Origin: a virus
DNA length: 31,419 bases
Direction: 5' to 3' (one strand)
Virus record (IMG/VR): IMGVR_UViG_3300022696_000071
Coordinates: 169,748 to 201,166 of that record
Position 1 is the first letter of the stretch; the number at the start of each line of letters is the position of its first letter. The notes under the pieces are model-generated. The model was not told the DNA's origin. It did no database searches and saw only the letters and a program-made list of their open reading frames with translations. The position numbers were made by a program, and so were the translations under genes. Shown here piece by piece: positions 1 through 20,811 of this stretch.

Positions 1-2345
1 TTCGCCTCAACAGTATCTCTTAATGTATGTGAAATTAACAAAACAATATAATCATTAGATAATGTATTCAACATATTTATCACAATGTCAACATTTTTTG
101 GATCTAATGCGTCTAAAATTTCATCCATTATGATTATATTGAAATGTGTATTTGTCATGTGTTCAAGAAGATGTCGTAATGATAATAATGTTATGATATC
201 AATTAATCGACCTTCGCCTCCAGAAAAACAATCCCTTGAATCTGTTAAATGTTCAGTATGAATACAATTAACCGAAAATTTATTTCTCATTTCTCCAGAT
301 TTTAATTGACTTTGGGAACTAAATCTTACTCTTAAATTATCAGTCATTTCAGATAATTCAGACGCACGAGAATTAATGATAGGTATAGATTCATCGAGAA
401 GAACAGCTTTAATTCCAGTAGATGAAAATGCATTTTTCCAGAATTTCAATATTTCTATATCCGTCTTTATCTTATTCAACTCTTGATTGTTAATATCTAT
501 TTTAGTCGATATATTCAATATAGAAGATTGTATATTTTTAACAGATTCATCATATTTTTCTTTATTTAATTTTCTATTTTCATTCATTATTCTGAGTCTG
601 GCTTCATACATTTCGATTTCTTTAACGCATTCATTAAAATTATTTGCTAATTGATTTAATAAATCAAGAGTTGTGGTTAATTCTAAAATTATAGATCCAA
701 CTACTTCAATTCTATCATTTATATCATTAATTTCATCATTATGTCTTTTTGTTTCTCTATCTATCAGATCATTCAATTTATTTTTGTATTTATTTTCTAA
801 TGTTAATTCTATTTTAGTTTTATCATTATTTAAATCAGATAATTTATTATTTAATGCTTCTCTATCTCTCTGATATTCAGTTGTTATATTATCTAATCTA
901 TATATTAGAGAATGTTTAACATTTACTTTCCAATCTTCAAGCAGTTCCATCTTTTCAGATTTTGATTTGTTTATATTATCCATATTTTGAGATTCTTTAT
1001 CTATTTCTTTTCCATAATTTTCAGATGAACTTTCGATATTATCAAGATTTTGTTTCAATCTTTTAAGTTCTGTTTTCATATTATTTACTTCAGATAATAT
1101 TTGAGATTTACTATATTCATCAGATAAATTTTGACCACATGCATAACACGTTGGATCATCTTTATTCAATCCATCAGTCATAGTTTTTAATCTATCATTT
1201 ACGGTTTTCATCGATTCCATTATCTCAACTTTTTTATCTGATAAATTAGATAATTCCATTGAATATGTCTGAAGTCGTTCTCTAACAGGTTCTACTTGTC
1301 TATTAAATTCTTCATCTATATTTGATTTATCAAATAGATATTTAGATTTAGCTTTTTGATTTTCATTTTCGATACCAGATCTATTATTATTAAATGAGAT
1401 ATCAAGATTTGATAATTTATTATTCAATTGATTTATTTTATCAGTTATATCTCTTAATTGTCGATTTAACTCATTATTTTTATCTGATTCTATTTTCTGA
1501 CGTATAAGATTTATATCTTGATTATATTCCCTTTGTTTACTCTCTATTTTGTTTTTAAGAGTTGTATGATCTATTTCATATTGGGTTAACTGTCGTTTTA
1601 TATCTTTAATATCATGAGTTTTTAATTCGGCTTCAAATTTTGATTTTTTATCTAATAATTGTTTTATTTCTTTATTTATATCTTCTACCGATTTGTCATG
1701 ATTATCTTTTTCTGATTGTTCAGATTTACGAATATTTTCTAATTCTGCATTTCTGGTATTTAAATATTTTTCATTAAATTCTATTTCAGATGATATAGTT
1801 GGTATTTTATTCTTACTTAATTCATCTTCTTTATTTTTTATAGATTGTCTATATTCTTCATATGCATCCAAATTTAACATCATATCAAAAATCTTTTTCT
1901 GATTTCCATCTGTTTCTTCAGTAAAAGATTTCTTTATAAACTGAGAGAACATTAAACAGTTTATAAATATATTAAATGGCATTAATATGTCTTCAATAGA
2001 TACATCAACTGGAGTTTTACCATTATCTTTATATATTAAGAATTCATTTTTATAAACTTTATGTTTTCTGTATCGTTCTACTCTATATTCATCGTCATCT
2101 ATACTAAACGTCAATTTAACATATGTATTTTTACCACTTCTTATTCGTATTACATCATCTGCTTTTATATTCTTGGTTGTTTTGCCATATAGTGCATATA
2201 CTATACCATCACAACATAATGTTGTTTTTCCTTGCCCATTATTCCCTTGAACAATAACGAATCTATTCGGTGTAAATTCGAAATCTATATGTTCGAAACA
2301 TTTGAAATTATGCATTTCTATTTTTTTGAATATTACTTGTCTCAT
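1..2345 (-). CDS. Rad50/SbcC-like recombination ATPase (T4 gp46-like); C-terminal end runs off window start (partial)
   Basis: Minus-strand frame starts at ATG 2343-2345 (MRQVIFKKIEMHNFKCF...), with N-terminal Walker A GNNGQGKTT. Long Lys/Glu/Asn-rich coiled-coil carries a zinc-hook-like CYAC. Near window start (C-terminal) are ABC signature FSGGE, Walker B IIIMDE and H-loop ISH. The start overlaps the stop of the SbcD-like gene (TAATG). Confidence 0.85.
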   Translation of the reverse strand, partial: MRQVIFKKIEMHNFKCFEHIDFEFTPNRFVIVQGNNGQGKTTLCCDGIVYALYGKTTKNIKADDVIRIRSGKNTYVKLTFSIDDDEYRVERYRKHKVYKNEFLIYKDNGKTPVDVSIEDILMPFNIFINCLMFSQFIKKSFTEETDGNQKKIFDMMLNLDAYEEYRQSIKNKEDELSKNKIPTISSEIEFNEKYLNTRNAELENIRKSEQSEKDNHDKSVEDINKEIKQLLDKKSKFEAELKTHDIKDIKRQLTQYEIDHTTLKNKIESKQREYNQDINLIRQKIESDKNNELNRQLRDITDKINQLNNKLSNLDISFNNNRSGIENENQKAKSKYLFDKSNIDEEFNRQVEPVRERLQTYSMELSNLSDKKVEIMESMKTVNDRLKTMTDGLNKDDPTCYACGQNLSDEYSKSQILSEVNNMKTELKRLKQNLDNIESSSENYGKEIDKESQNMDNINKSKSEKMELLEDWKVNVKHSLIYRLDNITTEYQRDREALNNKLSDLNNDKTKIELTLENKYKNKLNDLIDRETKRHNDEINDINDRIEVVGSIILELTTTLDLLNQLANNFNECVKEIEMYEARLRIMNENRKLNKEKYDESVKNIQSSILNISTKIDINNQELNKIKTDIEILKFWKNAFSSTGIKAVLLDESIPIINSRASELSEMTDNLRVRFSSQSQLKSGEMRNKFSVNCIHTEHLTDSRDCFSGGEGRLIDIITLLSLRHLLEHMTNTHFNIIIMDEILDALDPKNVDIVINMLNTLSNDYIVLLISHTLRDTVEA

Positions 2346-3388
2346 TATTGATTACCCCCTATAGCTTTTAATCCAACTTTCATGTATTTTTTTCTATCCC
2401 GCTCTGGAACATTTTCTATTTCAAGCCATTTTTTCATTTGATCTTTAATTTGCATATTAGATGTTATTCCACGTATTTCGTATTCTTCTTCATATTCATC
2501 TAATAATACAATATCTTCTTTAGAAGTATCCAATTCTTTTGGAACTTCTTTGAGTTTATTTCTAACGATTACATGATGCCCCTCTTTTTTCCTCTTTTCT
2601 ATATTTTCCAACATTGTCTTAAGATTACTCTTTGATGATTCATCAATTATAAAATTATAATACTTCCTATACCCTTTTGTTTCCACACTTTCTACTGATA
2701 AATCATCTGGATCTATAACGAGAAATCTTTTTGTTTCTCCATGCTCATCACGACGAAGTGGTATAGGGGAACCAACATAATATAATTTAGTAGTATCATT
2801 TTCTATTTTCTGAGGAGTATGATAATGACCAAGTAATACTAATTTAAATTTTGATAAATCGCCCATCGATATATTAGTTTTTAATGATATTCCAGATGCT
2901 AAATGTGCATCTGATAAACCAAAATGAGATATTAATATATCTGCTGGTGATGAATTTTCTATATGATTTATAATATTTTTAGAATGTGGAATATACATTA
3001 TATTATCAGTGAAGAATGGTTCAGTTATAGATGAAACATTTCCGTAACCACTTAACAAATTTATAGAAGATTCATTTTCAACATTCGATCCAATGTCATG
3101 ATTCCCATGAAGTAACACAAAATGTATACTTCTATACTTAAGTAGCACTTTACGTCTAAAATAATCAAAAGCTCTTGTATGAATGGTATTTTTAAGATCA
3201 TTTATATCACCACCTATTACTAACTTTGGAATATCGTTATTTAAAGCATAATTACACATATGATCGATTGTATCAATTGTTTCTATTAATCTAAGTGGTA
3301 TACCATCATCATTACTTTTTTTATCATTCCACATCTTTAAATGGATATCTGCTGTGAAAATGAATTTTTCTCTGGTTGACGAATTCAT
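2345..3388 (-). CDS. Mre11/SbcD-like calcineurin-type phosphoesterase nuclease (T4 gp47-like)
   Basis: 347 aa ORF with Mre11 phosphoesterase motifs: FTADIHLK (motif I), GGDINDL (II), LLHGNHD (III), GHYH. Adjacent and translationally coupled to the Rad50-like gene, as in T4 46/47. Confidence 0.88.
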   Translation of the reverse strand: MNSSTREKFIFTADIHLKMWNDKKSNDDGIPLRLIETIDTIDHMCNYALNNDIPKLVIGGDINDLKNTIHTRAFDYFRRKVLLKYRSIHFVLLHGNHDIGSNVENESSINLLSGYGNVSSITEPFFTDNIMYIPHSKNIINHIENSSPADILISHFGLSDAHLASGISLKTNISMGDLSKFKLVLLGHYHTPQKIENDTTKLYYVGSPIPLRRDEHGETKRFLVIDPDDLSVESVETKGYRKYYNFIIDESSKSNLKTMLENIEKRKKEGHHVIVRNKLKEVPKELDTSKEDIVLLDEYEEEYEIRGITSNMQIKDQMKKWLEIENVPERDRKKYMKVGLKAIGGNQ

Positions 3389-7487: not shown

Positions 7488-8936
7488 TTAATTTACTATC
7501 ATTTCTTTAACAGGCCAATTTCTTTCTTCATACGTCATTTTTCTCTTGGTATAACTTCTTTCAAACCAAGTGGTATTTTTTATAATCTTTGGATCATAAT
7601 CTGGACTATATTTTGGTACTCTAACAACTGGACCACCTGTATCAACAAGATCAAATACGAGTGGATTCTTCTTTATATTTTTTCCATGTTCATTCAGTAT
7701 AACTCTTTGAACTCTACCAATTGCTTGATCTATATTACCTGTTGGTGTTGACATTATAAAGCATGTAAACTCATCTCTACTATTTCCATCTCTCCCACCA
7801 GCATATGTTGCAAATACAATTTTCTTCTCATAAAATGCAACATCCAAATCATCAGTATCAGATACTTTTAATCTTTCTTTTTTGGTAGAAGTTGGTACAA
7901 ATAGACCAATATCTTTATTGTCAGCATTACATTTATCAGCAAGTGTAATCAAACAATCTTTTGTTTTTCCAAGTATAAGTGTTGGTCTATTATTATCATA
8001 TGCTTCATTAATAAGATATATTGTATTATTTATATAATGATCTATCTTATGCATTTGTTTATAATATCGTGATAATATAAATTTACCTCCCCAGGATAAA
8101 TATTTCTTATATCTATCATATATTCCAAAATTAAATTTAACTGCATAAATAAATGGATCAAGTCGCTCATCTGCTTCTTGTGGGAAATATTTAACATCTC
8201 CAAGATAATAACATATAATATCGTCTTGTCCATCTTCACGAGTAGGAGTAGCAGATAATCCATATAAACGATGACATGTCAAATGAAGAACAGCTTTAGA
8301 AAATTGTTCTGGTCCAACCCCAACATGACATTCATCAACTACTCCAACACCAATATCTGAATTCTTCAATGCATTTAAAAAATCTAATTTTTCTTTATTT
8401 ACAGCAGTATATATTACATGTGGAGTAGATAGTATTATTTTTTTATTTAATACTTTTTCATAATTTGTAGATGATAATCTCCCTATATCATCTTCTTTAA
8501 GATCAGTAAATTTAAGAAACTCATTTTCCCATTGTTTCAATAATTTATCTTTATGAGCAAATATAATTGCTTTTCTTTTTATTTTAGATATAGCTGCAAT
8601 AGTTATGACTGTTTTGCCAGAACCAGGTTCTAATTGAAGTACGCCTTTTGTGTTTGCTACTAAAAAATTAATAGCTTTTTCTTGTCTCTTATTTCTTGGA
8701 ACAATTTTCGAATTTATATCAATCTTTTCGCCTTTTATAGTGAAGTCAACAATTGGTTCAGAAGTGATGGGATAATTTCGAGGTATAAGTATATTATTGC
8801 TATCATATTCTGCATAAAATTTTATTCTTGAAACTGAATTATCCCACCCCTGAATTGTTCTATCAAGATCGCTTCTTATTTGCTCAAAACGATTATGATT
8901 TCTTGGTAATAATATCCCCCCTATTTTATCCAACAT
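7488..8936 (-). CDS. Superfamily-2 DEAD/DEAH-box helicase
   Basis: Walker A LEPGSGKTVI, motif II VVDECH, motif III LSATP, later QAIGRVQR (motif VI-like). Confidence 0.8.
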   Translation of the reverse strand: MLDKIGGILLPRNHNRFEQIRSDLDRTIQGWDNSVSRIKFYAEYDSNNILIPRNYPITSEPIVDFTIKGEKIDINSKIVPRNKRQEKAINFLVANTKGVLQLEPGSGKTVITIAAISKIKRKAIIFAHKDKLLKQWENEFLKFTDLKEDDIGRLSSTNYEKVLNKKIILSTPHVIYTAVNKEKLDFLNALKNSDIGVGVVDECHVGVGPEQFSKAVLHLTCHRLYGLSATPTREDGQDDIICYYLGDVKYFPQEADERLDPFIYAVKFNFGIYDRYKKYLSWGGKFILSRYYKQMHKIDHYINNTIYLINEAYDNNRPTLILGKTKDCLITLADKCNADNKDIGLFVPTSTKKERLKVSDTDDLDVAFYEKKIVFATYAGGRDGNSRDEFTCFIMSTPTGNIDQAIGRVQRVILNEHGKNIKKNPLVFDLVDTGGPVVRVPKYSPDYDPKIIKNTTWFERSYTKRKMTYEERNWPVKEMIVN

Positions 8937-10294: not shown

Positions 10295-11671
10295 TCAAGT
10301 TATAATATCATTATATATTTTTACACATTCATTATTTATATTTTTTAATTTTGACTCATTATCTTTAACTTTATTTTCTAATTCATGTATATCTAATTCA
10401 ACAGTTAATAATTTCTTTATCTTATATTTATTTATTATATTTTCTATATCTTCTCTACTTTCATATATTTTATGAGATATATCATCGATATATTCATCTT
10501 TCCAGCCAGTTTCAGAAAGATGACTAATATATGGTCTTATTTTACCAACTATATTTAACTCTTTTATTTTTTTATTTAGTGATTCTATTTGTAAGTTATG
10601 ATATTTCTCTTTAGCAGCTTTAAAATGATTATATGCAGATAATAGAAAATCATCTACGCCTATACTTTTGACAGTATCATCTTCAACAACCATTATATTG
10701 TATGACCGTGTGAATGTAAGAGCATTATCTACAGCATCCACCATTTGATCAAACATTTTTTTCTTATTTCTTTTTCTGGTAACACTGATTCTGATACGAG
10801 GTGGCTTTTCAGTATATATATCTAAATCTTCATAATCATCTTCTTTTTCATCACCAGTTTCATCAACAAATGAGATATTACCATCACTTGCAAGATTATA
10901 TTTTTTATATCTATCTATTTTATTCCATATCTTCTCAAAAGATGTTCTATTATCAAACCCTTTAACCATCACATCAAAATTCTTATTATCATTATAATAC
11001 TCTCCCTTAAATTCTATTTTAGCTGAACCGTCTTTAAGAAGTTTCTTATATAATTTATCATCTGATATTGCTATGCATCCAGGGAGACTTGGTTTTATAA
11101 ATATATCCTCCTTCGATTCACCAATAAGAAATAATAATCTTTTTACTAAATCTTCTATTTTGTATGTTGGTAAATCTACTTTGAAACCAAAGGCTATCGT
11201 GTTTAAATCAAACTTTGATATGAGACATAATGGAATTGTTGTTGGAAGAGAAATCGGTTCCTCTTCACCATCGAGTTCACCATCTATCCAATCAACATAA
11301 TCAATATATTCAAATGCTATTTTTTCAATAAATGGATTCGATTTAACACTTGTATATCTTGGAGCAGCAGCATTTGTCTTCTCAATTCCCATAGAAAGTC
11401 CCCACTGCCCCGATCCATGAACCAACCCGTTGGACACTAATGTTTGTATTGGAACTTCTGCCAGAGCATATGGGTGGAGTCTGGCAGAAGTATTACCAAG
11501 TATTTTAACCGTTTTTTCAAACTTATTTTTAGCTGATCTATGAACCGTCAATAATAATCTTCTGTGAATTGGGATTAATCCATCGAGAATAGATGGTATC
11601 ATTTTTGAAGTATTCACATATTTTGCATAGCTATAGTATAACGATTTTATAATAGTATCCAATATGTACAC
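10295..11671 (-). CDS. Type II DNA topoisomerase medium subunit (GyrA-like cleavage/religation subunit, T4 gp52-like)
   Basis: GyrA N-terminal motif IPSILDGLIPIHRRLL and active-site region AAAPRYTSVKS (catalytic Tyr). 458 aa, similar in size to T4 gp52. Confidence 0.88.
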   Translation of the reverse strand: MYILDTIIKSLYYSYAKYVNTSKMIPSILDGLIPIHRRLLLTVHRSAKNKFEKTVKILGNTSARLHPYALAEVPIQTLVSNGLVHGSGQWGLSMGIEKTNAAAPRYTSVKSNPFIEKIAFEYIDYVDWIDGELDGEEEPISLPTTIPLCLISKFDLNTIAFGFKVDLPTYKIEDLVKRLLFLIGESKEDIFIKPSLPGCIAISDDKLYKKLLKDGSAKIEFKGEYYNDNKNFDVMVKGFDNRTSFEKIWNKIDRYKKYNLASDGNISFVDETGDEKEDDYEDLDIYTEKPPRIRISVTRKRNKKKMFDQMVDAVDNALTFTRSYNIMVVEDDTVKSIGVDDFLLSAYNHFKAAKEKYHNLQIESLNKKIKELNIVGKIRPYISHLSETGWKDEYIDDISHKIYESREDIENIINKYKIKKLLTVELDIHELENKVKDNESKLKNINNECVKIYNDIIT

Positions 11672-13278: not shown

Positions 13279-15120
13279 TTAATCTTCTTCTATTTTCCAT
13301 TCTCCCATAGCTAATTTCCGTTTCTCAGAACTTAATGTTAATAAATCGGTTATTTTATCAATATTACTGGTCCATGTTACTTTTCTTATTTTTCTCGTAT
13401 TCTTATCCAGTATAAGTCGTTTCAAATCTTTTGGTAAGAATTCTCCTAATCCTTTAAATCTATATATCTTTTCTCCTTTATTTGATGCTTCTTTTCTTTC
13501 ATTTGTTGTCCAAATTGGAACCAATTTTTTATTTCTACGAACACCATATAATGGAATAATACAAATATAAAGATTTCCATTTTTGATAATATCTGGAGTC
13601 AATTTTGCAAAAAGAGCAATAAGAAGAACTGTAATGAATCGACCAGCAGGATCAGCGTCTGCTGCTAATAATATTTTATCATATCGTAATTTTTTAATAT
13701 TACAATTATCAAGTATTCCAGTTCCAACAGCATTCACTATATCTTTTATTTCTTTATTTTTTATTAATTCATCTGTTTTCTTCATCATTGCATTTGGTAT
13801 TACACCACGAAGAGGGAGTATGGCATGATGTTTTTTATCTCTTACTTGAATAAGACCACCTATTGCAGAATCACCCTCCCCGATTATCAATTCAGAATTC
13901 TTTCTACTTTTACAATCTGATAATTTAGTGAATTTAGTTGATCCACGTTTTGTACCAGTTCCATTTCCCTTCTCAATTTTCAATGCTCTATTTTGAATTG
14001 ATTTTCTTCTCAATTCGAATCGTTCTATTAATTTATCTCTTATTTCTTTATTCTTAGAAAAATAATTAAATAATTCTCTATTAAGTATTTTATCCAAAAC
14101 TGATAAATCACTTTTGGACTCAAGTTTAACTTTAACTTGAGCTTCAAAAGATGTTTTTATTAATTTAAGATCCATGAATATACGAAGATTTGCAAGACAA
14201 TCTTCTGGAATATATTCTGCTTTATGTTTCTTTCCAATTCGCTCAAATACAGATTTTAATTCATTTGTTAACTTAGTTATATGAACGCCACTATGTACTC
14301 GTACTAAATTAACACATGTGAATGATTTTGTAGCAATTGGTGGATGATCATCCCATCCAATTTTAAGAAAACATTCTTCTGGTCCCTTTTTTACAGTAAA
14401 TTCAAACCATTCAATATTATCTATATGTTTTGTTAGATAATATTTTATAAGATCATTTCTATCTGTATTTATAACAACATCATTTCCATCTACTCGATAT
14501 ACAATTCTAAGTTTTGGATAATTTGAACATGCAATTCTTAATTTTTCTTCAATTACATCTAAATCTACACCAGTATCATTGAAATATTTAGAAGATGGTT
14601 TTACAGTTACTTTAGTTGAATATGGTGGATTACCATTATATGTTTCAAACTTTCGTGAATAGTCAGATGTATTCTTAAATGAATATGTTCCACGTTTTCC
14701 ATCTCTATAAATATCTATTTCAAAATATTCAGATACTGCGTTAACTGCTGTATTTCCAATTCCATGTAATCCACTCGCTATCTTATAAGCAGAATCTTTT
14801 TTGTCTTTATTAAATTTACCAGATGAAAAAAGTTTAAGAGAAGTAGAAATGGGTGGATCTTCTTCTTCTGGAAGATCAGGATCAAATGGCATACCTCTAC
14901 CATTATCTAATACTCTAAATTCTTTATTTTCAGTATCAATAAATACACCAATTATATCACTGTAGCCAGCTTGAACTTCATCAAGAGCATTATCGATTAA
15001 TTCTTCTGCTAATCTCGTAGCAGTTTCAGTACTTCCTAAATACATACCCGTATTATGACGAATATGATTGATTTCATCCATTACAACTATATCTTCAGTT
15101 CCATAAATATCCATAAGCAT
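13279..15120 (-). CDS. Type II DNA topoisomerase large subunit (GyrB-like ATPase + TOPRIM; T4 gp39 fused with gp60 equivalent)
   Basis: GHKL ATPase N-box EELIDNALDE, TOPRIM IIGEGDSAIGG and DADPAG. 613 aa is about T4 gp39 (516) plus gp60 (160), as in T2-type fused genes. Continuous frame with no bypass gap. Confidence 0.9.
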   Translation of the reverse strand: MLMDIYGTEDIVVMDEINHIRHNTGMYLGSTETATRLAEELIDNALDEVQAGYSDIIGVFIDTENKEFRVLDNGRGMPFDPDLPEEEDPPISTSLKLFSSGKFNKDKKDSAYKIASGLHGIGNTAVNAVSEYFEIDIYRDGKRGTYSFKNTSDYSRKFETYNGNPPYSTKVTVKPSSKYFNDTGVDLDVIEEKLRIACSNYPKLRIVYRVDGNDVVINTDRNDLIKYYLTKHIDNIEWFEFTVKKGPEECFLKIGWDDHPPIATKSFTCVNLVRVHSGVHITKLTNELKSVFERIGKKHKAEYIPEDCLANLRIFMDLKLIKTSFEAQVKVKLESKSDLSVLDKILNRELFNYFSKNKEIRDKLIERFELRRKSIQNRALKIEKGNGTGTKRGSTKFTKLSDCKSRKNSELIIGEGDSAIGGLIQVRDKKHHAILPLRGVIPNAMMKKTDELIKNKEIKDIVNAVGTGILDNCNIKKLRYDKILLAADADPAGRFITVLLIALFAKLTPDIIKNGNLYICIIPLYGVRRNKKLVPIWTTNERKEASNKGEKIYRFKGLGEFLPKDLKRLILDKNTRKIRKVTWTSNIDKITDLLTLSSEKRKLAMGEWKIEED

Positions 15121-15140
15121 ATACCTTATTACGAATTAAT

Positions 15141-15173
15141 AGAGTGGTGAGTTAAACATCAACGCACCACTCT
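15141..15173 (-). promoter_or_regulatory. 9-bp inverted repeat AGAGTGGTG/CACCACTCT hairpin between the Whirly-like gene and the topoisomerase large-subunit gene
   Basis: Read directly. No clean U-run follows, so it is more likely an attenuator or processing site than a strong terminator. Confidence 0.3.
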
Positions 15174-15204
15174 ATATTATATATTATGAGTATAGTGGAT
15201 TATA

Positions 15205-15915
15205 TTACCACTGAAAATCTTGATTATCTATATTATCAACATTTTCTTGTGGTGGTGTTTGTTGTCCTCCACCACCACTATTTTGTTGTGGTTGATTCTG
15301 TTGTCCACCACCTCCACTATAGTTCTGATCATATCCACCATATCCACCACCACTCTGCTGTCCACCTTGACCTCCCTGTTGATTCTGTTGATTTTCTTTA
15401 TACTTCTTTGCTCTATCAACAGCTTCAAAGCAGTCATGAATAAATGGAAGCATTCGTGCGCCGTTTTCAATATATGATTTAAACAGCAACAATTCTTGCC
15501 CTCTCAGCAAGAATGATATGTTTTGTCCTTCACTCTGTGGAGGCAATGTGGTAAGAAGCATACATCCGTTAAGATTGCCTTGAGGGTCTTTTCCAGGAGC
15601 GAGAAATAGTCTGGATGGTTGATTTTGTCTGAAATGCGTTACTTTGAATACATTTTTCAGATCTTGTGGTGCTTTTGGATCTGGATCTTCATATGTTCCC
15701 TGTAATATTCGATCAAAACTTCTTGTTATTCCTACACATTCTCCGGGTGATAGAGAAAAGAAATTTTTGTTGTTCCAATCAAATACTTTTGCTCCTGCTT
15801 GTGGCCTTCCTTGTGCTTGCGGATTCAACGCTCTTGCCATTTCAATTTGAATGTTTCCCTTAACAAGCGTTACTCCAACTTTTAACGACGACATTTTTGG
15901 GTTGTAAAATTGCAT
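15205..15915 (-). CDS. Whirly-like ssDNA-binding protein with SSB-like Gly/Gln-rich tail and acidic-aromatic C-terminus (tentative)
   Basis: AKVFDWNNKNFFSLSPGECVGI resembles the Whirly signature (YDWSRKQVFSLSVTEIG). The downstream region is also similar (YEDPDP vs FFHDP; LLRGQELLLFKSYIE vs ITRAEFAVLISAFN). C-terminal 55 aa are GGQ/GGY repeats ending ...NIDNQDFQW, like bacterial SSB IDL plus acidic tip. RBS GGAGAGAG. Confidence 0.6.
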   Translation of the reverse strand: MQFYNPKMSSLKVGVTLVKGNIQIEMARALNPQAQGRPQAGAKVFDWNNKNFFSLSPGECVGITRSFDRILQGTYEDPDPKAPQDLKNVFKVTHFRQNQPSRLFLAPGKDPQGNLNGCMLLTTLPPQSEGQNISFLLRGQELLLFKSYIENGARMLPFIHDCFEAVDRAKKYKENQQNQQGGQGGQQSGGGYGGYDQNYSGGGGQQNQPQQNSGGGGQQTPPQENVDNIDNQDFQW

Positions 15916-15946
15916 ACGTCTCTCTCCATATATTTTTTAAACTTTT

Positions 15947-16507
15947 TTAGTAGTGATTTTTCTTAACTAATTTCCATCGAAATAAATTCTTCACATTGTG
16001 TAATTCTAATACATGATTCGATGATAGAATAGTCAACATTGGATACTGTCGTATCATTTGTAAATCTATTACTTGAACAACTTCAGGCATATTGAAATCT
16101 TCAACTCTTACAGTGAATGGTGTTATTTTTCTTATCCATAAATCTGATAATTGATCACTATTATTTGAATCATCAAGTTGAAAAGGAGGGCAATCTATGA
16201 ATATAAGTAAGTTTTCAGGTTCATTATATTTAAATATAAAAAACTTTGTCATGAATACTGTATATCCATTATTCACATTTTTGAATTTTATACATTTATC
16301 GCAATCATAGAGTTTTGAAAGAAGATTATGTTTTTTGCACGGATTACCTGGAGCACATTGTGTGCATTCTTTATCTCGCCAATCTTCTTCTCTTCTATTT
16401 TCAAATTCGCCCATGTATGTAGCCACAAGCTTCTCATTTAATAGTAATTTTGCAAATGCATTATCAAAAATAACTTTTTCCGATACAAAATCATTTAATA
16501 TTGCCAT
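15947..16507 (-). CDS. hypothetical Cys-rich protein (186 aa; CTQCAPGNPCKKH ... CDKC)
   Basis: Intact ORF with RBS TGAGGAAAA. Putative zinc-binding cluster. Confidence 0.55.
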   Translation of the reverse strand: MAILNDFVSEKVIFDNAFAKLLLNEKLVATYMGEFENRREEDWRDKECTQCAPGNPCKKHNLLSKLYDCDKCIKFKNVNNGYTVFMTKFFIFKYNEPENLLIFIDCPPFQLDDSNNSDQLSDLWIRKITPFTVRVEDFNMPEVVQVIDLQMIRQYPMLTILSSNHVLELHNVKNLFRWKLVKKNHY

Positions 16508-16636
16508 ATAATTTTCCTCAAATAATATTTACTACATTTTTACTATAATAAAATTATCATGTGATTTTTTTTATATTTCATCTATAGATTCTTTGTTTTA
16601 CAATATAAATGATGATGTTTCAATTAATCATCATTA

Positions 16637-16789
16637 TCAATCTTCTTTTAAATTTTCATCTTTTATTTCGCGTTCAAAGATATCAGATAGACCAATAAGT
16701 CCAAATATTGTTTCTGATGCCTCCTTTCTAAAAGTTTTAGATAAACATAATATTGAACCAGTAATTAATAATGGTAATACTAAACCCAT
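16637..16789 (-). CDS. small hydrophobic (single-TM) protein, 50 aa (MGLVLPLLITGSILCLSKTFRKEASETIFGLIGLSDIFEREIKDENLKED)
   Basis: Not in the ORF track (under 60 aa). Hand-translated on the minus strand. SD GGGAGA sits 5 nt upstream of the ATG. The hydrophobic N-terminal half plus acidic tail is typical of a small membrane peptide. Confidence 0.4.
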   Translation of the reverse strand: MGLVLPLLITGSILCLSKTFRKEASETIFGLIGLSDIFEREIKDENLKED

Positions 16790-16874
16790 GATAATCTCCC
16801 AATTTATGTATTTGTCCTATTCGTATTACTTTTCAAATAAAAAATAAAATTTTAAAAAATATTAATAACTGAAA

Positions 16875-16925
16875 GTGATATGATTCTGCTTATTCTATAA
16901 TATATAAATCGCAGAATCATATCAC
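16875..16925 (-). terminator. rho-independent terminator closing the tRNA/ncRNA transcription unit (perfect 15-bp stem GTGATATGATTCTGC/GCAGAATCATATCAC, U-rich tail on minus transcript)
   Basis: Perfect inverted repeat read directly. The minus-strand transcript continues with UUUCAGUUAUUAAUAUUUUUUAAAAUUUUAUUUUUU. Confidence 0.65.
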
Positions 16926-17391
16926 CGTTCCAGCTTACTACTATGCGAAGTCCTTGTCGGGATTTTCCGTCGCATGTTGATCTAAATCTTAATTTAGATC
17001 AACTTAATTATATCTAATCTTATAAATTAGATATAATCAGTACACTAAATACTTACTCTATAGTACTAACTAATAATATAATTTTTTATTAATATGCCAC
17101 CCCAATCCACCCACACCGAATACAATGGACTTATTGATGTGCCAAGTCGGTGAGGTTCCGAGTATTTCACGACACGCTTTATAATACGTAGATATGTATG
17201 AAATCAGATCTATAACTTAGATCCTATATCTATTATTATAAGCGTGTAACACAATAAATCTTGTTACTTCCTCCTACTCTGTACTCTTCCCACCCATCTC
17301 TCCCTAATGAAATTATCTATCATGATCTCTTATTCTTATCATCATGTTACCTCCTTTCTGATTGGTTTTCTGGTTAACTGCATGTTTTTGA

Positions 17392-17481
17392 TGGCGGAAG
17401 AGAGAGGATTCGAACCTCCGGACGCTTTTAAACGTCGATGGTTTTCAAGACCATTGCTTTAAACCACTCAGCCACTCTTCC
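17392..17481 (-). tRNA. tRNA-Ser (anticodon TGA), type II long variable arm, CCA encoded
   Basis: Hand-folded from the reverse complement: acceptor GGAAGAG/CTCTTCC, anticodon stem ATGGT/ACCAT with loop CTTGAAA, long variable arm, T-arm GGAGG-TTCGAAT-CCTCT, discriminator G, then CCA. Confidence 0.85.
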
Positions 17482-17581
17482 ATATGAATTATATATTATA
17501 AAGTAATCGATCTAATTCATAACTCTTCTCCAATTACTTTCTAAATAAAAAATATATTTAATAAAATCAAATAATTAAGAG

Positions 17582-17660
17582 TGGTGGACCCTGCTGGATT
17601 CGAACCAGCGAATGATCGGTTATGAGCCGATGGCCTTACCAGACTTGGCGAAGGGTCCAC
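17582..17660 (-). tRNA. tRNA-Met (anticodon CAT; elongator-type; could alternatively be lysidine-modified tRNA-Ile2), CCA encoded
   Basis: Acceptor GTGGACC/GGTCCAC, anticodon stem ATCGG/CCGAT with loop CTCATAA, T-arm GCTGG-TTCGAAT-CCAGC, discriminator A, then CCA. Confidence 0.85.
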
Positions 17661-19191
17661 ATAATTAAATTACAATATATCTTGAACTTTAATATGCCTA
17701 TGGAATTTTTATACGAGATGTGGAATGGATATTAAAATCCATCAAATATTAATTCCGTCACATAAATGCATCTCTATCGCAAATGAGTCAGAAAGGAGTT
17801 AGAAACCGACTCATTTACTATCCCTTTTATTTTATTTAGAAATAACCATAACCATTAATGCCGCCAATCGGCAGGGATTCTGTGATTATTCCATAGGCAT
17901 ATTAAAATTTAAGATAACTTATACACACTAAACTGATCATGGGCATGTATGTGGGAGGATGGTATGCGCGTACCATATTCCATATACATGCAAGCGAGTC
18001 TCATGATCAGTTTACTACATATAAATTGAATGATTTGAGTTCCCCAACATTGACAGTTTGCGTCACCGATCAAGGTCTAAGAACTTATTAAGAGAACCCA
18101 AATCAAAGCATTTGCATATATATGCATTAATCTGATCACAAGCCATGATTACGATACGAGAAATAGGATTAAATAATATCGTAATCATTAGAGAGAAGAA
18201 GGGGTTGTCTGCCGCAACCGTAAAGCTCTCAAACTTGTGACCAGATTAATACATATATAAAAGACTCAAATGGGGAAATGGGACAGTTTGAGTGGGTATT
18301 CTACTTTTTACCATCTCCCCATCTGAGAAACCAAATCGGGCACCATCGTTTGTGGCGATTATACATCCGGTATGAATAATAACCGCCGATGCCCTTATCT
18401 TATCGTTATATCAAACTCATATGTGGGTATCACCTCCTTCCTTAATATTTATCCGATTACTCACAGGCCAATCAGTCTTACACTCAACGCCCATGACATA
18501 AAAGCGAAGAGTTGCTGATTGACGACGACTAATATATTCTAATATGATTCCATGCAGGGAGACTCGTTGGTTAGACAATACTCCCTGAATATGACCGATG
18601 ACACATTGCAATGATTAACGTAAATTAATCACCGATCTTTGATTATCTGCACTCATCGCAAAATAATCACGACATCTTACTGCCGTTTTGACACGACCAC
18701 CACAGCCGCGTCTCAATGCATCAATCATGCACATTTACGTGTACTATGATTGTATCGGATTAGCTTTAATCATCCACTACATGGACGACATTTTATCCGA
18801 CAAATGCATGGAACCATATTACAATATACTAATTAAGAGTTGAAGATCTCGTTATTGATTGACTGCCACGAAAATCAACAACAAAATCTTCAATCTCTTT
18901 AAATTGATGAATACAACGTTATCATAATATATAAACCTTATAAGATTTATATACGTTGCTTGAGCCATAGCTTCCCCATCAAGCAACAGATAACGTTGTA
19001 CTCATAGTAAACTGATCGAGCATCGGTGTTTGTAAACGGAATGAACACCAATCTCTTTCGAGTGCATGATGTTCTCGTTTTGCTCGATCAGTTTATAATG
19101 AACACAATCTTGACTCGGCACGAATCAACCAAACGGATTAAATATTGATAAATAAAGATTGTGCTCATTATAAAATCAAAGATTAATTGAG
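17661..19191 (-). ncRNA. ORF-free, GC-elevated (about 40%), hairpin-dense 1.5-kb region inside the tRNA operon; candidate stable structured RNA(s), identity unknown
   Basis: No ORF of 65 aa or more on either strand (the two 60-64 aa track ORFs lack RBS, and one overlaps tRNA-Leu). Many perfect 10-15 bp inverted repeats, including two about 85-nt hairpins at 17931-18014 and 19007-19092. Flanked by co-oriented tRNAs. Confidence 0.35.
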
Positions 19192-19276
19192 TACCGGGAG
19201 CGGGACTCGAACCCGCACGGTCGCAATGACCTCGGATTTTAAGTCCGATATGTAGACCTGATTCCATCATCCCGGC
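19192..19276 (-). tRNA. tRNA-Leu (anticodon TAA), type II long variable arm, no encoded CCA
   Basis: Acceptor GCCGGGA/TCCCGGT (G1-U72 wobble), anticodon stem TCGGA/TCCGA with loop CTTAAAA, variable arm GGTCATTGCGACC, T-arm GCGGG-TTCGAGT-CCCGC, discriminator A. Confidence 0.75.
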
Positions 19277-19336
19277 ACAAAAATCTAAATTGATCTTTGA
19301 TTATAATTTAATATATATAGTCAGTTGAATATATAT

Positions 19337-19663
19337 TTAATCAACAATAAGTTTTTTTATCTTAGCTTTAAGCATGAATTGTCTCAATTCATCTTCGGTT
19401 ACATTTAAAGTTCCAGATTTTATCATATCATTGAAAGCATCATATTTTTCAAATAATCGATCTTCTACACTTATTTTATTCTCATCATTTTTTCTATCTC
19501 TTTCAAGAACAAGATTTGTAAATTCATCAACTATATCATCAGTTGCACAACTGAGTTTGATTATTTTATTTCGATATGCTTCTTCATGTAATCTTGATTG
19601 ACACAGCATAGCAGCCAATATGACATTCGTAACTACACTCACAAATAAAAACAAACTAATCAT
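19337..19663 (-). CDS. hypothetical membrane-anchored protein (N-terminal TM helix, 108 aa)
   Basis: N-terminal hydrophobic segment ISLFLFVSVVTNVILAAML followed by a charged, coiled-coil-like domain. Confidence 0.5.
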   Translation of the reverse strand: MISLFLFVSVVTNVILAAMLCQSRLHEEAYRNKIIKLSCATDDIVDEFTNLVLERDRKNDENKISVEDRLFEKYDAFNDMIKSGTLNVTEDELRQFMLKAKIKKLIVD

Positions 19664-19699
19664 AATAATCTCTCCATTTGTTTGTCCTGCTTGAAAGAA

Positions 19700-20002
19700 T
19701 CAAATAATAAATCCATATTCTATTTTATAAATTATAATATCTATAGTAATTGGATCTTCTAAAACTACTATATGATTATAAGCTTTATTATCGGAACCAA
19801 TTACATCGATGGTTAAAACACACTTAAAACCAATATCTATATCGTTAAAATCATGATATTTATATCTATTAGAATTATATAAATCACTTATAGTTTTATT
19901 TAATAATATAATATTATGAATGTATTCTCTACATGGATCATCTTCATCAAGCATATTATTTAAATATTTTTCAAACTTTGTCTTTTCCATTATTCGCCCC
20001 AT
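19700..20002 (-). CDS. hypothetical protein (100 aa; C-terminal ...KIEYGFII like paralog family end)
   Basis: ORF track. The C-terminal G-F-I-I resembles the family-wide C-terminal motif. Confidence 0.45.
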   Translation of the reverse strand: MGRIMEKTKFEKYLNNMLDEDDPCREYIHNIILLNKTISDLYNSNRYKYHDFNDIDIGFKCVLTIDVIGSDNKAYNHIVVLEDPITIDIIIYKIEYGFII

Positions 20003-20445: not shown

Positions 20446-20792
20446 CCACCTTTTCTCTTCTTAATATCTTTTAATATATTATCAAACATACGTTTGAAAT
20501 GGTCATTGACTTTCTTTTTTTGAATATCTATCTGATGCTCTAATAGATGTATTGGAACTTCTTCCAATTTAAAAAGTCTTACTTCATCTTTACCATTTCT
20601 TATAGAAAACATAAGTTCATCTTTATGAATATTTCCAGATAAAGAACAAACTACTGATCCATAATCAAATGCATCGGGCCAAATTTCTTGTATTTGTAAT
20701 GATCGTTTTAGCTTAACCATTAAAGCATTCTTTTCATCATTCAGTTCATCTATTCTTTTCATTTTTTCTTCTATTTCTTCAGATCTATTCAT
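20442..20792 (-). CDS. hypothetical protein (116 aa)
   Basis: Start overlaps the upstream gene's stop (ATGA-type coupling). Confidence 0.5.
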   Translation of the reverse strand: MNRSEEIEEKMKRIDELNDEKNALMVKLKRSLQIQEIWPDAFDYGSVVCSLSGNIHKDELMFSIRNGKDEVRLFKLEEVPIHLLEHQIDIQKKKVNDHFKRMFDNILKDIKKRKGG

Positions 20793-20811
20793 TATAACTA
20801 TTCTCCTATAA

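What the first reader, a model, noticed from the sequence alone, without database searches (positions are those of the whole stretch)
15205..15915. Whirly-like ssDNA-binding domain fused to a bacterial-SSB-style Gly/Gln-rich disordered tail with acidic-aromatic tip (…DNQDFQW)
The N-terminal 180 aa carry a close match to the Whirly family signature (FDWNNKNFFSLSPGECVGI vs YDWSRKQVFSLSVTEIG) plus downstream similarity. Whirly proteins are chiefly plant organellar ssDNA binders and are unusual in phages. The C-terminal roughly 55 residues are GGQ/GGY low-complexity ending in an acidic tip with terminal aromatic residues. This is exactly the architecture bacterial SSB uses (IDL + DDDIPF) to recruit genome-maintenance partners, and T7 gp2.5 uses a similar acidic C-terminal Phe. 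The protein may therefore act as an alternative SSB hub, or as a decoy that hijacks host SSB-interacting proteins. It sits next to the topoisomerase II genes.
Basis: partly seen in the sequence, partly recalled or inferred. Interest (0 to 1): 0.7.

Follow-up and report, generated by a model that had tools for sequence, protein, structure and literature searches.

The report
Phage Whirly-fold protein with SSB-like tail
An uncultured giant phage encodes a protein with the plant-organelle "Whirly" nucleic-acid-binding fold and a floppy acidic tail like that of bacterial single-stranded-DNA-binding protein, so it is probably a non-standard ssDNA-binding hub for phage DNA replication or repair.

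Summary
Window 15205-15915 (-) is a real 236-aa gene.

- **Tail:** Residues 181-236 are disordered and Gly/Gln/Asn-rich, ending in the acidic-aromatic tip DNQDFQW.
- **Family:** There are 96 representatives at 50% identity, all metagenomic. Of 85 full-length members, 61 end in an aromatic residue and 17 end in the bacterial SSB tip motif (D/E)(I/L)PF. The tail is therefore selected, not a low-complexity artefact.
- **Context:** The gene lies just upstream of phage topoisomerase II genes in 12 of 13 informative loci, inside a helicase/Mre11-Rad50 module.

Best reading (about 0.55): an ssDNA-binding hub that works like SSB, gp32 or gp2.5 but is built on a Whirly scaffold.

Two caveats apply. One relative has a canonical OB-fold SSB gene 37 nt upstream, so this may be a second, specialised ssDNA binder. 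The known jumbo-phage Whirly-fold protein ChmC has the same architecture yet prefers RNA, and this lineage also encodes a multisubunit RNA polymerase.

Novelty: new variant of a known kind.

The parts
15205..15915 (-). Complete gene for the 236-aa Whirly-fold protein with an SSB-like tail. The stop codon is at 15205-15207.
   Evidence: ORF listing. 96 homologous cluster representatives. The start is supported by the conserved M-x-F-[YF]-N-P N-terminus and by the RBS.
15376..15915 (-). Whirly domain, residues 1-180: b1-b4 (2-55), a1 (57-72), b5-b8 (90-137), then a helix-turn-helix (139-154 and 156-180). The domain is basic, with pI 9.35.
15739..15783 (-). Sequence-detectable Whirly signature F45-D-W-N-N-K-N-F-F-S-L-S-P-G-E59, in the b3-b4 hairpin and the start of a1. 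It is equivalent to YDWxxKQxFSLSxxE of plant Whirly proteins.
   Evidence: HMMER alignments to 4kop, 4koo and 1l3a. Pfam PF08536 hit over residues 6-66. A [YF][DN][WHNYF]-type motif is found in 62 of 94 relatives.
15244..15375 (-). Disordered Gly/Gln/Asn-rich linker, residues 181-224. It is analogous to the intrinsically disordered linker of bacterial SSB.
   Evidence: pLDDT 51-64. Composition. Compositional tblastn match to the E. coli SSB linker, E 1e-5 with composition statistics switched off. Family tail length after the domain is 9-138 aa, median 71.
15241..15320 (.). 39-bp tandem duplication (2.1 copies, 82% match) inside the tail coding region. It encodes the repeated GGGGQQ-x6-7 unit.
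   Evidence: Tandem Repeats Finder. This suggests the linker grows by slippage or duplication.
15208..15243 (-). C-terminal acidic-aromatic tip, residues 225-236 (NVDNIDNQDFQW). It is the presumed docking peptide.
   Evidence: pLDDT rises to about 67 in the last 16 residues. A terminal aromatic is found in 61 of 85 relatives. The last ten residues average 3.0 acidic and 0.2 basic. 14 members including the query end in [DE][FW]x[FW], and 17 end in [DE]x0-1[ILVM]PF.
15920..15927 (-). Shine-Dalgarno sequence GGAGAGAG, 4 nt upstream of the ATG.
   Evidence: Read directly from the sequence.
15139..15175 (-). Stable hairpin (11-bp outer stem) in the 84-nt spacer between the Whirly stop codon and the topoisomerase II large-subunit start codon. 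It may be a partial terminator or an mRNA-stabilising or processing element.
   Evidence: RNA fold of -25 kcal/mol, z = -3.7, with 0 of 200 shuffles as stable. It has no T-run, so the terminator scan did not call it. Its function is inferred.
13279..15120 (-). Type II topoisomerase ATPase/Toprim (GyrB-like) subunit. It is the conserved downstream neighbour.
   Evidence: Pfam DNA_gyraseB, Toprim, HATPase_c and GyrB_C. It lies downstream of the Whirly gene on the same strand in 12 of 13 informative loci.
10295..11671 (-). Type II topoisomerase cleavage (GyrA/ParC-like) subunit, in the same module.
   Evidence: Pfam DNA_topoisoIV, E 7e-30. Syntenic in L002, L005, L006, L010, L015 and L016.
7488..8936 (-). 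SNF2/DEAD-type helicase, in the same module.
   Evidence: Pfam ResIII, DEAD and SNF2. Syntenic in L002, L005, L006 and L015.
2345..3388 (-). Mre11-like phosphoesterase. A Rad50-like ORF runs off the window start. It belongs to the same module.
   Evidence: Pfam Metallophos. Its homologue lies directly upstream of the Whirly gene in L003 and within the module in L005.
15947..16507 (-). Conserved upstream neighbour of 186 aa, with a C-x2-C-x5-CKKH zinc-knuckle-like motif and a DCPPF motif. Function unknown.
   Evidence: Homologues lie directly upstream of the Whirly gene in L002, L015 and L016. There is no Pfam, PHROG or PDB match.

Best explanation
The gene encodes a two-part nucleic-acid-binding protein of an uncultured, AT-rich jumbo-phage lineage.

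**Part 1** is a basic Whirly domain (two four-stranded sheets plus a C-terminal helix-turn-helix). By analogy with plant Whirly proteins, MRP1/2 and ChmC, it should assemble into a tetramer and bind single-stranded nucleic acid without sequence specificity.

**Part 2** is an acidic, disordered Gly/Gln/Asn-rich tail that ends in a short acidic-aromatic peptide.

The most likely job is that of an ssDNA-binding hub in phage DNA replication, recombination and break processing. The protein would coat ssDNA made by the neighbouring helicase, Mre11/Rad50 and type II topoisomerase machinery. The tail tip would dock partner enzymes, either phage-encoded or the host's SSB-binding proteins. The acidic tail probably also competes with DNA for the basic surface. 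In this reading it works like E. coli SSB, T4 gp32 and T7 gp2.5 but is built on the fold that plant organelles use for their Whirly ssDNA binders.

One relative carries a canonical OB-fold SSB gene right next to it. The protein may therefore be a second, specialised ssDNA binder rather than the sole replicative SSB. One such role would be protecting resected ends from illegitimate annealing, as plant Whirly proteins do.

**Shown here:** the gene, the predicted fold, the family, conservation of the tail and tip, and the synteny.

**Inferred:** ssDNA binding, tetramer formation, partner recruitment and autoinhibition.
For: **Fold**
- The AF2 model has pLDDT of about 97 for residues 1-175.
- Sequence-level Whirly hits support this.

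**Charge**
- The domain has pI 9.35 and the tail 4.05. Family medians are 9.08 and 4.13.

**Tail under selection**
- 61 of 85 family representatives end in F, W or Y, and 77 of 85 have an aromatic residue in the last three positions.
- The last ten residues average 3.0 acidic and 0.2 basic.
- 17 members end in (D/E)(I/L/V/M)PF, the bacterial SSB C-terminal tip. That tip occurs in several clades of the domain tree.
- The linker composition matches the E. coli SSB linker.

**Context**
- The topoisomerase II large subunit lies downstream on the same strand, 46 nt to 7.7 kb away, in the window and in L001, L002, L005, L006, L010, L012, L015, L016, L017, L018 and L021. This holds down to 24% protein identity.
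- The helicase and Mre11/Rad50-like genes belong to the same block. In L003 the Mre11-like gene is directly upstream.
- In L010 a canonical SSB gene ending in ...TDLPY is 37 nt upstream. This ties the gene to ssDNA metabolism.

**Established knowledge**
- Plant Whirly proteins are tetrameric ssDNA binders that limit microhomology-mediated repair after gyrase-poison-induced breaks (PMC3245945; PMC7549692).
- The C-terminal tips of SSB and gp2.5 recruit partner proteins.
Against: - No binding, oligomer or partner data exist.
- ChmC, the only characterised phage Whirly-fold protein, has the same domain-plus-tail design, even with FDDDIPDF-type tips. Yet it binds ssRNA (58 nM) better than ssDNA (184 nM) and acts on mRNA. 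The tail architecture therefore does not prove a DNA role.
- The lineage encodes a multisubunit RNA polymerase 2-5 kb upstream of the gene in L002 and L015.
- A canonical SSB coexists in L010, so the protein is not needed as a generic SSB there.
- The query's own tip (DFQW) is not the IPF/LPF type known to bind host partners.
- The KGKAAL hallmark of plant Whirly proteins is absent.
- Only 31 kb of the 201-kb genome could be seen. Whether this phage has an OB-fold or gp32-type SSB is unknown.
Confidence: 0.55

Rival explanations
1. It is a ChmC-like RNA-binding protein. In this reading a Whirly-fold tetramer binds phage mRNA or small RNAs. It uses the Gly/Gln/Asn-rich tail to form condensates and supports transcription, mRNA handling or export in a jumbo phage that has its own multisubunit RNA polymerase.
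For: - ChmC (PhiPA3 gp61, PhiKZ gp67) is a Whirly-fold homotetramer with a roughly 50-70-aa disordered N/G-rich tail and an acidic end. It prefers ssRNA, forms tail-dependent condensates and is encoded next to RNA polymerase genes.
- Its tails end in an aromatic residue after acidic residues, as they do here.
- Multisubunit RNA polymerase beta/beta' genes lie 1.8-5 kb upstream of the Whirly gene in L002 and L015.
- The structural matches MRP1/2 and PUR-alpha are RNA binders.
Against: - There is no detectable sequence relationship to ChmC. hhalign of the family profiles gives probability 0.3% and E 0.22.
- The fold is the four-stranded canonical Whirly type. Its best matches are the plant ssDNA binders, and ChmC-type entries are not recognisable in the viral fold search. 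ChmC is described as beta3-alpha repeats.
- No chimallin homologue is found in the window or in loci L001-L003, which is a limited view.
- The tightest and most conserved neighbour is topoisomerase II, not the polymerase.
- A canonical SSB is adjacent in L010.
Confidence: 0.2
2. It is primarily a decoy that mimics the host SSB tail. It would titrate or redirect host SSB-interacting proteins such as RecQ, ExoI, PriA, chi or Ung, or defence sensors that watch SSB or ssDNA. In this reading it does not serve as a structural ssDNA coat.
For: - 17 of 85 relatives carry an exact bacterial-type (D/E)(I/L)PF C-terminus after a disordered linker.
- Tip type clusters by clade, as expected if it tracks hosts or partners.
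- It coexists with a genuine SSB in L010.
- Whirly/sPC4 domains are used by the defence systems Shedu and Menshen as nucleic-acid sensors, so the fold is in play in phage-host conflict.
Against: - A decoy does not need a conserved, basic, 180-aa nucleic-acid-binding domain under strong constraint. That domain is alignable across 96 clusters.
- The query's clade has replaced IPF with D-F-x-W, which is not known to bind host SSB partners.
- The conserved position in the core replication and repair block suggests a core rather than an accessory function.
- The host is unknown, so mimicry cannot be checked.
Confidence: 0.12
3. It is a sequence-specific transcription factor or a nucleoid- or chromatin-type DNA-compacting protein of the phage. 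Potato p24/PBF-2 was first described in the former role, and some bacterial PC4/Whirly-like proteins are described in the latter.
For: - An HU-like gene lies directly upstream of the homologue in L014.
- RNA polymerase genes are nearby in L002 and L015.
Against: - Whirly proteins bind ssDNA without sequence specificity in the solved complexes.
- An SSB-type acidic-aromatic tail is not a feature of transcription factors or nucleoid-associated proteins.
- The synteny is with topoisomerase, helicase and nuclease genes.
Confidence: 0.05
4. It is not a real feature. The Whirly resemblance would be a chance motif match and the tail a low-complexity translation artefact.
For: - The Pfam score is below the gathering threshold (21.6 against 23 bits) and covers only 61 residues.
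- The tail coding region contains a 39-bp tandem duplication.
- Mirror low-complexity ORFs exist on the other strand.
Against: - There are 96 homologous cluster representatives, 62 of them at E<=1e-10.
- The tip is conserved far beyond chance, with P about 2e-47.
- Synteny is conserved.
Confidence: 0.01

Closest known systems
Plant organellar Whirly proteins (p24/PBF-2 = StWHY1, StWhy2, AtWHY1-3; Pfam PF08536)
   Same: - Shared [YF]DW...FSLS..E signature.
- These proteins are non-OB ssDNA binders that act in break repair alongside a bacterial-type SSB and a gyrase. This parallels the topoisomerase II, Mre11/Rad50 and (in L010) SSB neighbourhood seen here.
   Different: - Only 13-17% identity.
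- The query is below the Pfam gathering score.
- The KGKAAL hallmark is absent in all 94 family members.
- Plant Whirly proteins have no Gly/Gln-rich linker ending in an SSB-type tip.
- The host here is a phage, not a eukaryotic organelle.
ChmC / Imp6 of Chimalliviridae (PhiKZ gp67, PhiPA3 gp61, Goslar gp176)
   Same: - A jumbo-phage protein of about 250 aa with a Whirly-like fold.
- An N/G-rich disordered tail of 50-70 aa followed by an acidic end with a C-terminal aromatic residue (...FDEDMPSF...FDDDIPDF).
- It binds single-stranded nucleic acids and is a tetramer.
- Its phages also encode multisubunit RNA polymerases.
   Different: - No detectable sequence homology (hhalign probability 0.3%).
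- ChmC is described as beta3-alpha repeats, prefers RNA, and is encoded next to RNA polymerase subunits. It is tied to the phage nucleus.
- The present family is canonical beta4-alpha and sits at the head of a topoisomerase II, helicase and Mre11-Rad50 block.
Bacterial SSB (OB fold, disordered linker, DDDIPF tip)
   Same: - A basic DNA-binding core, a Gly/Gln/Pro-rich disordered linker and an acidic tip ending in an aromatic residue.
- 17 of 85 relatives end in the same (D/E)(I/L)PF motif.
   Different: - The core is a Whirly fold, not an OB fold.
- The query's tip is D-F-Q-W rather than I-P-F.
- A true OB-fold SSB coexists next to the homologue in L010.
T7 gp2.5 and T4 gp32 (phage SSBs with acidic C-termini)
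   Same: By established knowledge, these are phage-encoded ssDNA binders. Their acidic C-terminal tails both recruit replisome partners and compete with DNA for the binding cleft. The gp2.5 tail ends in an essential Phe. The same logic is proposed here.
   Different: Both have OB-fold cores and belong to unrelated families. No sequence or fold similarity to them was seen in any search.
Phage T5 PC4-like protein (PDB 4bg7) and bacterial PC4-like proteins YdbC and SP_0782
   Same: Members of the same PC4-like superfamily. They bind ssDNA, and the T5 protein is implicated in recombination-dependent replication.
   Different: - They are single-repeat (type II) domains that dimerise, not a tandem type I Whirly domain.
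- They have no SSB-like tail.

Membership tests
Whirly family (PF08536; plant WHY proteins) | Whirly domain fold: two antiparallel four-stranded beta-sheets, each followed by a helix, plus a C-terminal helix-turn-helix | tested here: met
   [not shown]
Whirly family (PF08536; plant WHY proteins) | Sequence match to the Pfam model at or above its gathering score | tested here: not met
   The query scores 21.6 bits against a cut-off of 23, with E 2.1e-4, over residues 6-66 only. 16 of 79 relatives match at E<0.01, with a best of 7e-6. That best value scales to about 26 bits, which is my own inference.
Whirly family (PF08536; plant WHY proteins) | KGKAAL hallmark motif in strand 1 | tested here: not met
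   0 of 94 family members contain KGKAAL or KGK[AS][AS][LIVM]. The N-terminus carries F[YF]NP[KR] instead.
Whirly family (PF08536; plant WHY proteins) | Homotetrameric 'whirligig' assembly | not testable with these tools
   Only single-chain prediction was available. A conserved helix-turn-helix with an LP[FY] turn is compatible with this but is not a test.
Whirly family (PF08536; plant WHY proteins) | Sequence-nonspecific ssDNA binding | not testable with these tools
   Only indirect evidence exists: a basic domain with pI 9.35 and the genomic context.
Bacterial SSB (PF00436) | OB-fold DNA-binding core | tested here: not met
   There is no SSB or OB hit in Pfam, the PDB or the fold searches. 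The fold is Whirly.
Bacterial SSB (PF00436) | Intrinsically disordered Gly/Gln/Pro-rich linker | tested here: met
   Residues 181-224 have pLDDT 51-64. The 64-aa tail has 18 Q, 17 G and 8 N. There is a compositional match to the E. coli SSB linker.
Bacterial SSB (PF00436) | Acidic C-terminal tip ending in (I/L)-P-F | tested here: inconclusive
   The query ends in D-N-Q-D-F-Q-W. This is acidic and aromatic but lacks I/L-P-F. 17 of 85 relatives end in [DE]x0-1[ILVM]PF, and tip types are clade-specific.
ChmC (Chimalliviridae Whirly-fold RNA-binding protein) | Sequence homology to PhiKZ gp67 / PhiPA3 gp61 | tested here: not met
   hhalign of the family profile against gp67 and against a 22-sequence ChmC profile gives probability 0.3-0.4%. 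tblastn against GenBank phages finds no match.
ChmC (Chimalliviridae Whirly-fold RNA-binding protein) | Whirly-like fold plus an N/G-rich disordered tail and an acidic end | tested here: met
   for this protein. for ChmC.
ChmC (Chimalliviridae Whirly-fold RNA-binding protein) | Encoded by a chimallin-encoding (nucleus-forming) phage, next to non-virion RNA polymerase genes | tested here: inconclusive
   There is no chimallin hit in the window or L001-L003, but only 20-31 kb per genome was visible. Multisubunit RNA polymerase beta/beta' genes lie 1.8-5 kb upstream in L002 and L015. The immediate conserved neighbour is topoisomerase II.
ChmC (Chimalliviridae Whirly-fold RNA-binding protein) | Preferential ssRNA binding and tail-dependent condensates | not testable with these tools
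   This needs biochemistry.

The most novel reading that the evidence does not exclude
Whirly-fold proteins carrying bacterial-SSB-type tails may be a general, previously unrecognised class of ssDNA/ssRNA-binding interaction hubs in jumbo phages that encode their own multisubunit RNA polymerase. In this reading, the present family and ChmC are two anciently diverged or convergent branches. Their (D/E)(I/L)P(x)F or D-F-x-W tips would work as SSB-tip mimics that plug the phage protein into the host's SSB-interactome, or into phage topoisomerase, helicase and nuclease partners. ChmC's tail would then do more than drive condensates, and in many of these phages the Whirly protein would be the functional replacement for an OB-fold SSB.
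Probability: 0.15. Interest if true: 0.8.

Novelty: new variant of a known kind. Interest (0 to 1): 0.6.

Why it matters
Nearly all characterised replicative SSBs of bacteria and phages use OB folds. This family would show that a different scaffold, the one plant organelles use, has independently acquired the same "disordered linker plus acidic-aromatic tip" interaction module. That would be strong evidence that the tail logic, rather than the fold, is what makes an SSB hub.

The family also gives a concrete, testable handle on an entire uncultured jumbo-phage lineage. No curated library or cultured phage covers its replication genes.

It prompts a second look at ChmC, whose tails end in near-copies of the SSB tip, a similarity the ChmC paper does not mention.

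If the tips bind host SSB partners, they are natural peptide probes or inhibitors of that interactome. If they bind phage topoisomerase II or Mre11/Rad50, they define a new coupling between ssDNA protection and break processing.

Tried and rejected
1. **Word-indexed protein searches.** The search with the protein found only itself, and the search with the family profile found only three proteins. The family became visible only with the exhaustive HMMER scan.
2. **Curated libraries and cultured phages.**
   - blastn of the region and tblastn of the domain and of the family consensus against 50,697 GenBank phage records gave no match.
   - PHROGs gave no family for any of the 79 members. The single-protein hits were tail-only and weak.
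   - NCBIfam gave nothing.
3. **Reference genomes.** Two scans of reference bacterial and archaeal genomes found no relative, so no prophage or host clue was obtained. One attempt failed for lack of a conserved stretch, as did the first viral scan with the wide alignment. A viral scan with the DDIPF-clade alignment found nothing.
4. **ChmC homology.** It was tested with sequence-profile and profile-profile comparisons and rejected.
5. **Chimallin and PhiKZ proteins.** Searched against the window and loci, they gave only a weak RNA polymerase hit.
6. **The parent contig.** It could not be walked, because the exact protein is not in the contig index. The rest of the 201-kb genome was not examined, including any OB-fold SSB, gp32-like gene or chimallin.
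7. **The upstream 186-aa neighbour.** I considered that it might be a gp32-like zinc-containing SSB, because an OB-fold SSB occupies that slot in L010. It has no Pfam, PHROG or PDB match. Only four loci carry true homologues. The idea is unsupported.
8. **Terminator after the gene.** The terminator scan called none. The intergenic hairpin was found by direct folding.
9. **Literature.** The searches found no paper describing a phage Whirly-fold SSB. They found only ChmC and defence-system sensor domains.
10. **Cappadocia 2010.** This paper on ssDNA-contact residues is not held, so residue-level conservation of the DNA-binding surface was not assessed.
Full report
**1. The observation**

Window 15205-15915 on the minus strand is an intact ATG-to-TAA ORF of 236 codons. 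A GGAGAGAG ribosome-binding site precedes it.

HMMER aligns it with the YDW..KQ.FSLS..E stretch of potato p24/PBF-2 and Arabidopsis WHY1-3.

The C-terminal 64 residues contain 18 Gln, 17 Gly and 8 Asn and end in ...NVDNIDNQDFQW. The next gene downstream, 85 nt away, is a GyrB-like type II topoisomerase subunit.

**2. Is the Whirly resemblance more than chance?**

Sequence evidence is consistent but weak.
- Pfam Whirly gives E 2.1e-4 and 21.6 bits, just under the gathering score of 23, and covers only residues 6-66.
- phmmer against the PDB lists WHY2, WHY1, p24 and WHY3 as the top four hits at E 0.5-1.5.

An exhaustive HMMER scan of 1.84 billion cluster representatives with residues 1-172 found 96 proteins at E<=1e-3 and 62 at E<=1e-10. 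A 79-sequence alignment of these (A1) has Whirly proteins as its six best PDB hits, with a best E of 0.0087. Sixteen of the 79 members hit Pfam Whirly on their own, with a best of 7e-6.

Structure prediction with that alignment is decisive.
- pLDDT is about 97 over residues 1-175.
- The topology is b4-a-b4-a plus a further helix.
- The tail is disordered at pLDDT 51-67.
- The Foldseek top six are the same superfamily.

The domain is a genuine but distant Whirly-superfamily member. The KGKAAL hallmark of plant Whirly proteins is absent from all 94 family members. I therefore do not file it as a plant-type Whirly protein.

**3. Is the tail real?**

Yes. I examined the 85 family representatives of at least 200 aa.
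- 61 end in an aromatic residue (47 Phe, 13 Trp), and 77 have one in the last three positions.
- The last ten residues average 3.0 acidic and 0.2 basic.
- 17 end in (D/E)x0-1(I/L/V/M)PF, for example ...DDDIPF, ...DSDLPF and ...EDDIPF. This is the C-terminal tip of bacterial SSB.
- 14, including the query, end in (D/E)(F/W)x(F/W).

Against a 7.8% aromatic background in the tails, 60 of 84 terminal aromatics gives a binomial P of about 2e-47.

Tail length after the domain ranges from 9 to 138 residues, with a median of 71. The domain is basic and the tail acidic (query pI 9.35 against 4.05, family medians 9.08 against 4.13).

On a neighbour-joining tree of the domain, tip types cluster by clade. 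The IPF/LPF type occurs in several clades, and the query's clade has D-F-x-W. The query's tip is therefore a derived variant.

The tail coding region carries a 39-bp tandem duplication, which suggests growth by slippage. With composition correction switched off, the E. coli SSB linker aligns to the query tail at E 1e-5. This is a compositional likeness, not homology.

**4. Where the family lives**

- All members are metagenomic and either unnamed or labelled "hypothetical protein".
- No member matches any PHROG or NCBIfam model.
- Neither the domain nor the family consensus finds anything in 50,697 GenBank phage records by tblastn.
- Two pattern-based scans of 185,579 reference prokaryote genomes found nothing.
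- Long contigs that carry the gene are 201-236 kb.
- The window is 28.8% GC and has seven tRNA genes.
- Its topoisomerase subunit is at most 32% identical to that of any cultured phage.

This is an uncultured jumbo-phage lineage.

**5. Genomic context**

I compared 13 distinct loci with usable flanks. In 12 of them the GyrB-like topoisomerase subunit lies downstream of the Whirly gene on the same strand. These are the window and L001, L002, L005, L006, L010 (= L011), L012, L015, L016, L017, L018 and L021.

| Spacing to topoisomerase subunit | Loci |
|---|---|
| 46 nt to about 0.4 kb | window, L002, L005, L006, L012, L018, L021 |
| 1.3 to 7.7 kb | L001, L010, L015, L016, L017 |

In L003 (= L013) the topoisomerase genes are upstream, and an Mre11-like gene abuts the Whirly gene.

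The order is Whirly, TopoII-B, TopoII-A, (QueD/PTPS), SNF2/DEAD helicase, Mre11-like, Rad50-like. It holds even for members only 24-28% identical to the query, such as L005 and L006.

Two further context facts cut in different directions.
- In L010 a canonical OB-fold SSB lies 37 nt upstream of the Whirly gene. It is 39% identical to the E. coli SSB core (E 8e-22) and ends in ...IPTDLPY. L011 is the same phage.
- In L002 and L015 multisubunit RNA polymerase beta'/beta genes lie 1.8-5 kb upstream.

A 186-aa protein with a C-x2-C-x5-CKKH motif is the immediate upstream neighbour in the window, L002, L015 and L016. It has no match anywhere.

A stable hairpin sits between the Whirly gene and the topoisomerase gene (z -3.7). 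It could raise Whirly mRNA relative to downstream genes, but this is an inference.

**6. What is known**

*Plant Whirly proteins.* They are tetrameric, non-OB ssDNA binders of organelles. They bind without sequence specificity and suppress microhomology-mediated repair after breaks, including those induced by the gyrase poison ciprofloxacin (PMC3245945; PMC7549692).

*ChmC.* The only characterised phage protein with this fold that the literature searches found is ChmC of nucleus-forming jumbo phages (PMC11077065).
- It is a homotetramer.
- It binds ssRNA with Kd 58 nM and ssDNA with Kd 184 nM.
- It has an N/G-rich disordered tail needed for condensates and an acidic end.
- It is encoded near RNA polymerase genes.

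I fetched PhiKZ gp67 and 38 relatives. Their tails end in ...FDEDMPSF...GFDDDIPDF and ...GDDDFPF. ChmC therefore shares the SSB-like tip design. The paper does not mention SSB.

Profile-profile comparison finds no sequence relationship between ChmC and the present family.

The viral fold library returns several uncharacterised phage proteins with this fold, with a best hit of G4KKB5 at E 6.7e-9. The fold therefore recurs in phages, although it is unannotated.

**7. Mechanism**

The most likely reading (about 0.55) is an ssDNA-binding hub.
- A basic, probably tetrameric Whirly platform coats ssDNA.
- The acidic tail both tempers binding and presents a terminal docking peptide to partner enzymes.
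- The protein operates with the co-encoded topoisomerase II, helicase and Mre11/Rad50 functions.

The adjacent canonical SSB in L010 links the gene to ssDNA metabolism. It also argues that the protein can be a second, specialised binder, as in plant organelles, rather than the sole SSB.

The main rival (about 0.2) is a ChmC-like RNA role. ChmC's identical design and the RNA polymerase genes nearby keep it alive. A pure host-SSB-tail decoy gets about 0.12, a transcription or nucleoid factor about 0.05, and an artefact about 0.01.

The steps shown here are the gene, the fold prediction, the family, the tail and tip conservation and the synteny. The inferred steps are ssDNA binding, tetramerisation, partner docking and autoinhibition.

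**8. Novelty and score**

Both the fold and the tail logic are known, and a Whirly-fold protein with a disordered tail is known in jumbo phages. Three things are new.
- A large, uncatalogued family of canonical-type Whirly domains in phages.
- Its fusion to a tail that in many members ends in the exact bacterial SSB tip.
- Its fixed place at the head of a topoisomerase II and repair block.

I rate it a new variant of a known kind, with interest 0.6.

Noticed in passing
window 17660-19310: About 1.5 kb between tRNA-Met and tRNA-Leu has no ORF of 65 aa or more, yet its GC is 0.35-0.41 against a window mean of 0.288. On the minus strand, 17700-18690 folds with z = -12.7. The region is a string of long-stem hairpins with 20-36-nt arms enclosing 43-250 nt, and several arms share a CTGATC core. 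One such inverted repeat (19171-19191 / 19285-19305) brackets tRNA-Leu exactly. Rfam finds nothing here beyond the tRNAs. These may be processing stems around tRNA-like or small RNAs.
   Followed up: partly
L004:17160-17900 (PhiKZ gp67 = ChmC) and homologues P0097-P0134: ChmC tails are Gly/Asn-rich and end in near-copies of the bacterial SSB C-terminal tip (...GFDDDIPDF...FDEDIPNF...GDDDFPF...AFDEDMPSF). The ChmC paper interprets the tail only as a condensate driver and never mentions SSB.
   Followed up: partly
L010:9583-9963 (and L011:2-301, the same phage): A canonical OB-fold SSB lies 37 nt upstream of the Whirly homologue. It is 39% identical to the E. coli SSB core, has a short tail and ends in ...IPTDLPY. 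No such gene was detected in the window or the other loci.
   Followed up: yes
window 15947-16507 (-): A 186-aa protein with a C-x2-C-x5-CKKH zinc-knuckle-like motif and DCPPF and SDxW..KI.PF motifs is conserved directly upstream of the Whirly gene in the window, L002, L015 and L016. It has no Pfam, PHROG or PDB match.
   Followed up: partly
L002:20-8191 and L015:1-5119: Multisubunit RNA polymerase beta' (Rpb1 domain 5) and beta (Rpb2 domains 3 and 6) genes are interrupted or flanked by intein and DUF7487 ORFs. They lie 1.8-5 kb upstream of the Whirly gene. This uncultured lineage therefore encodes its own RNA polymerase.
   Followed up: partly
window 9230-10276 (-): A 348-aa protein with a C-terminal 6-pyruvoyl-tetrahydropterin synthase (QueD-like) domain sits between the topoisomerase A subunit and the helicase. 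L015 and L016 have a stand-alone 138-140-aa PTPS in the same place. This may point to a 7-deazaguanine-type DNA modification pathway.
   Followed up: no
L005:16671-16756 and beyond: The Rad50-like gene (1118 aa) downstream of the Mre11-like gene carries an intein-splicing domain. Inteins also occur in the RNA polymerase region of L002 and L015.
   Followed up: no
window 15139-15175: An 11-bp-stem hairpin sits in the 84-nt spacer between the Whirly stop codon and the topoisomerase start codon. It folds at -25 kcal/mol with z -3.7. It lacks a T-run, so it is not a classical terminator.
   Followed up: partly
window 15150-15900: The Whirly gene has GC of 0.37-0.42, well above the window mean of 0.288. 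This is partly because of GGN and CAR codons in the tail.
   Followed up: no
L014:131-409: An HU-type (Bac_DNA_binding) gene lies directly upstream of the closest homologue, P0002, on a short contig.
   Followed up: no
window 16500-31419: Seven tRNA genes (Ser, Met, Leu, Tyr, Gln, Thr, Pro), all on the minus strand, are interspersed with small ORFs that match nothing in Pfam or PHROGs. ORF 29435-29842 has a weak KH-domain hit at E 4e-4, below the cut-off.
   Followed up: no
model m52e79e17875f against BFVD: Several uncharacterised phage proteins share the fold. These are G4KKB5 (301 aa, E 6.7e-9), A0A6J5MEJ5, A0A8S5UTR0, and about 120-130-aa proteins of Acinetobacter phage ME3 and Bacillus phages W.Ph. 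and BPS10C. Whirly/PC4-like folds therefore recur unannotated in cultured phages.
   Followed up: no
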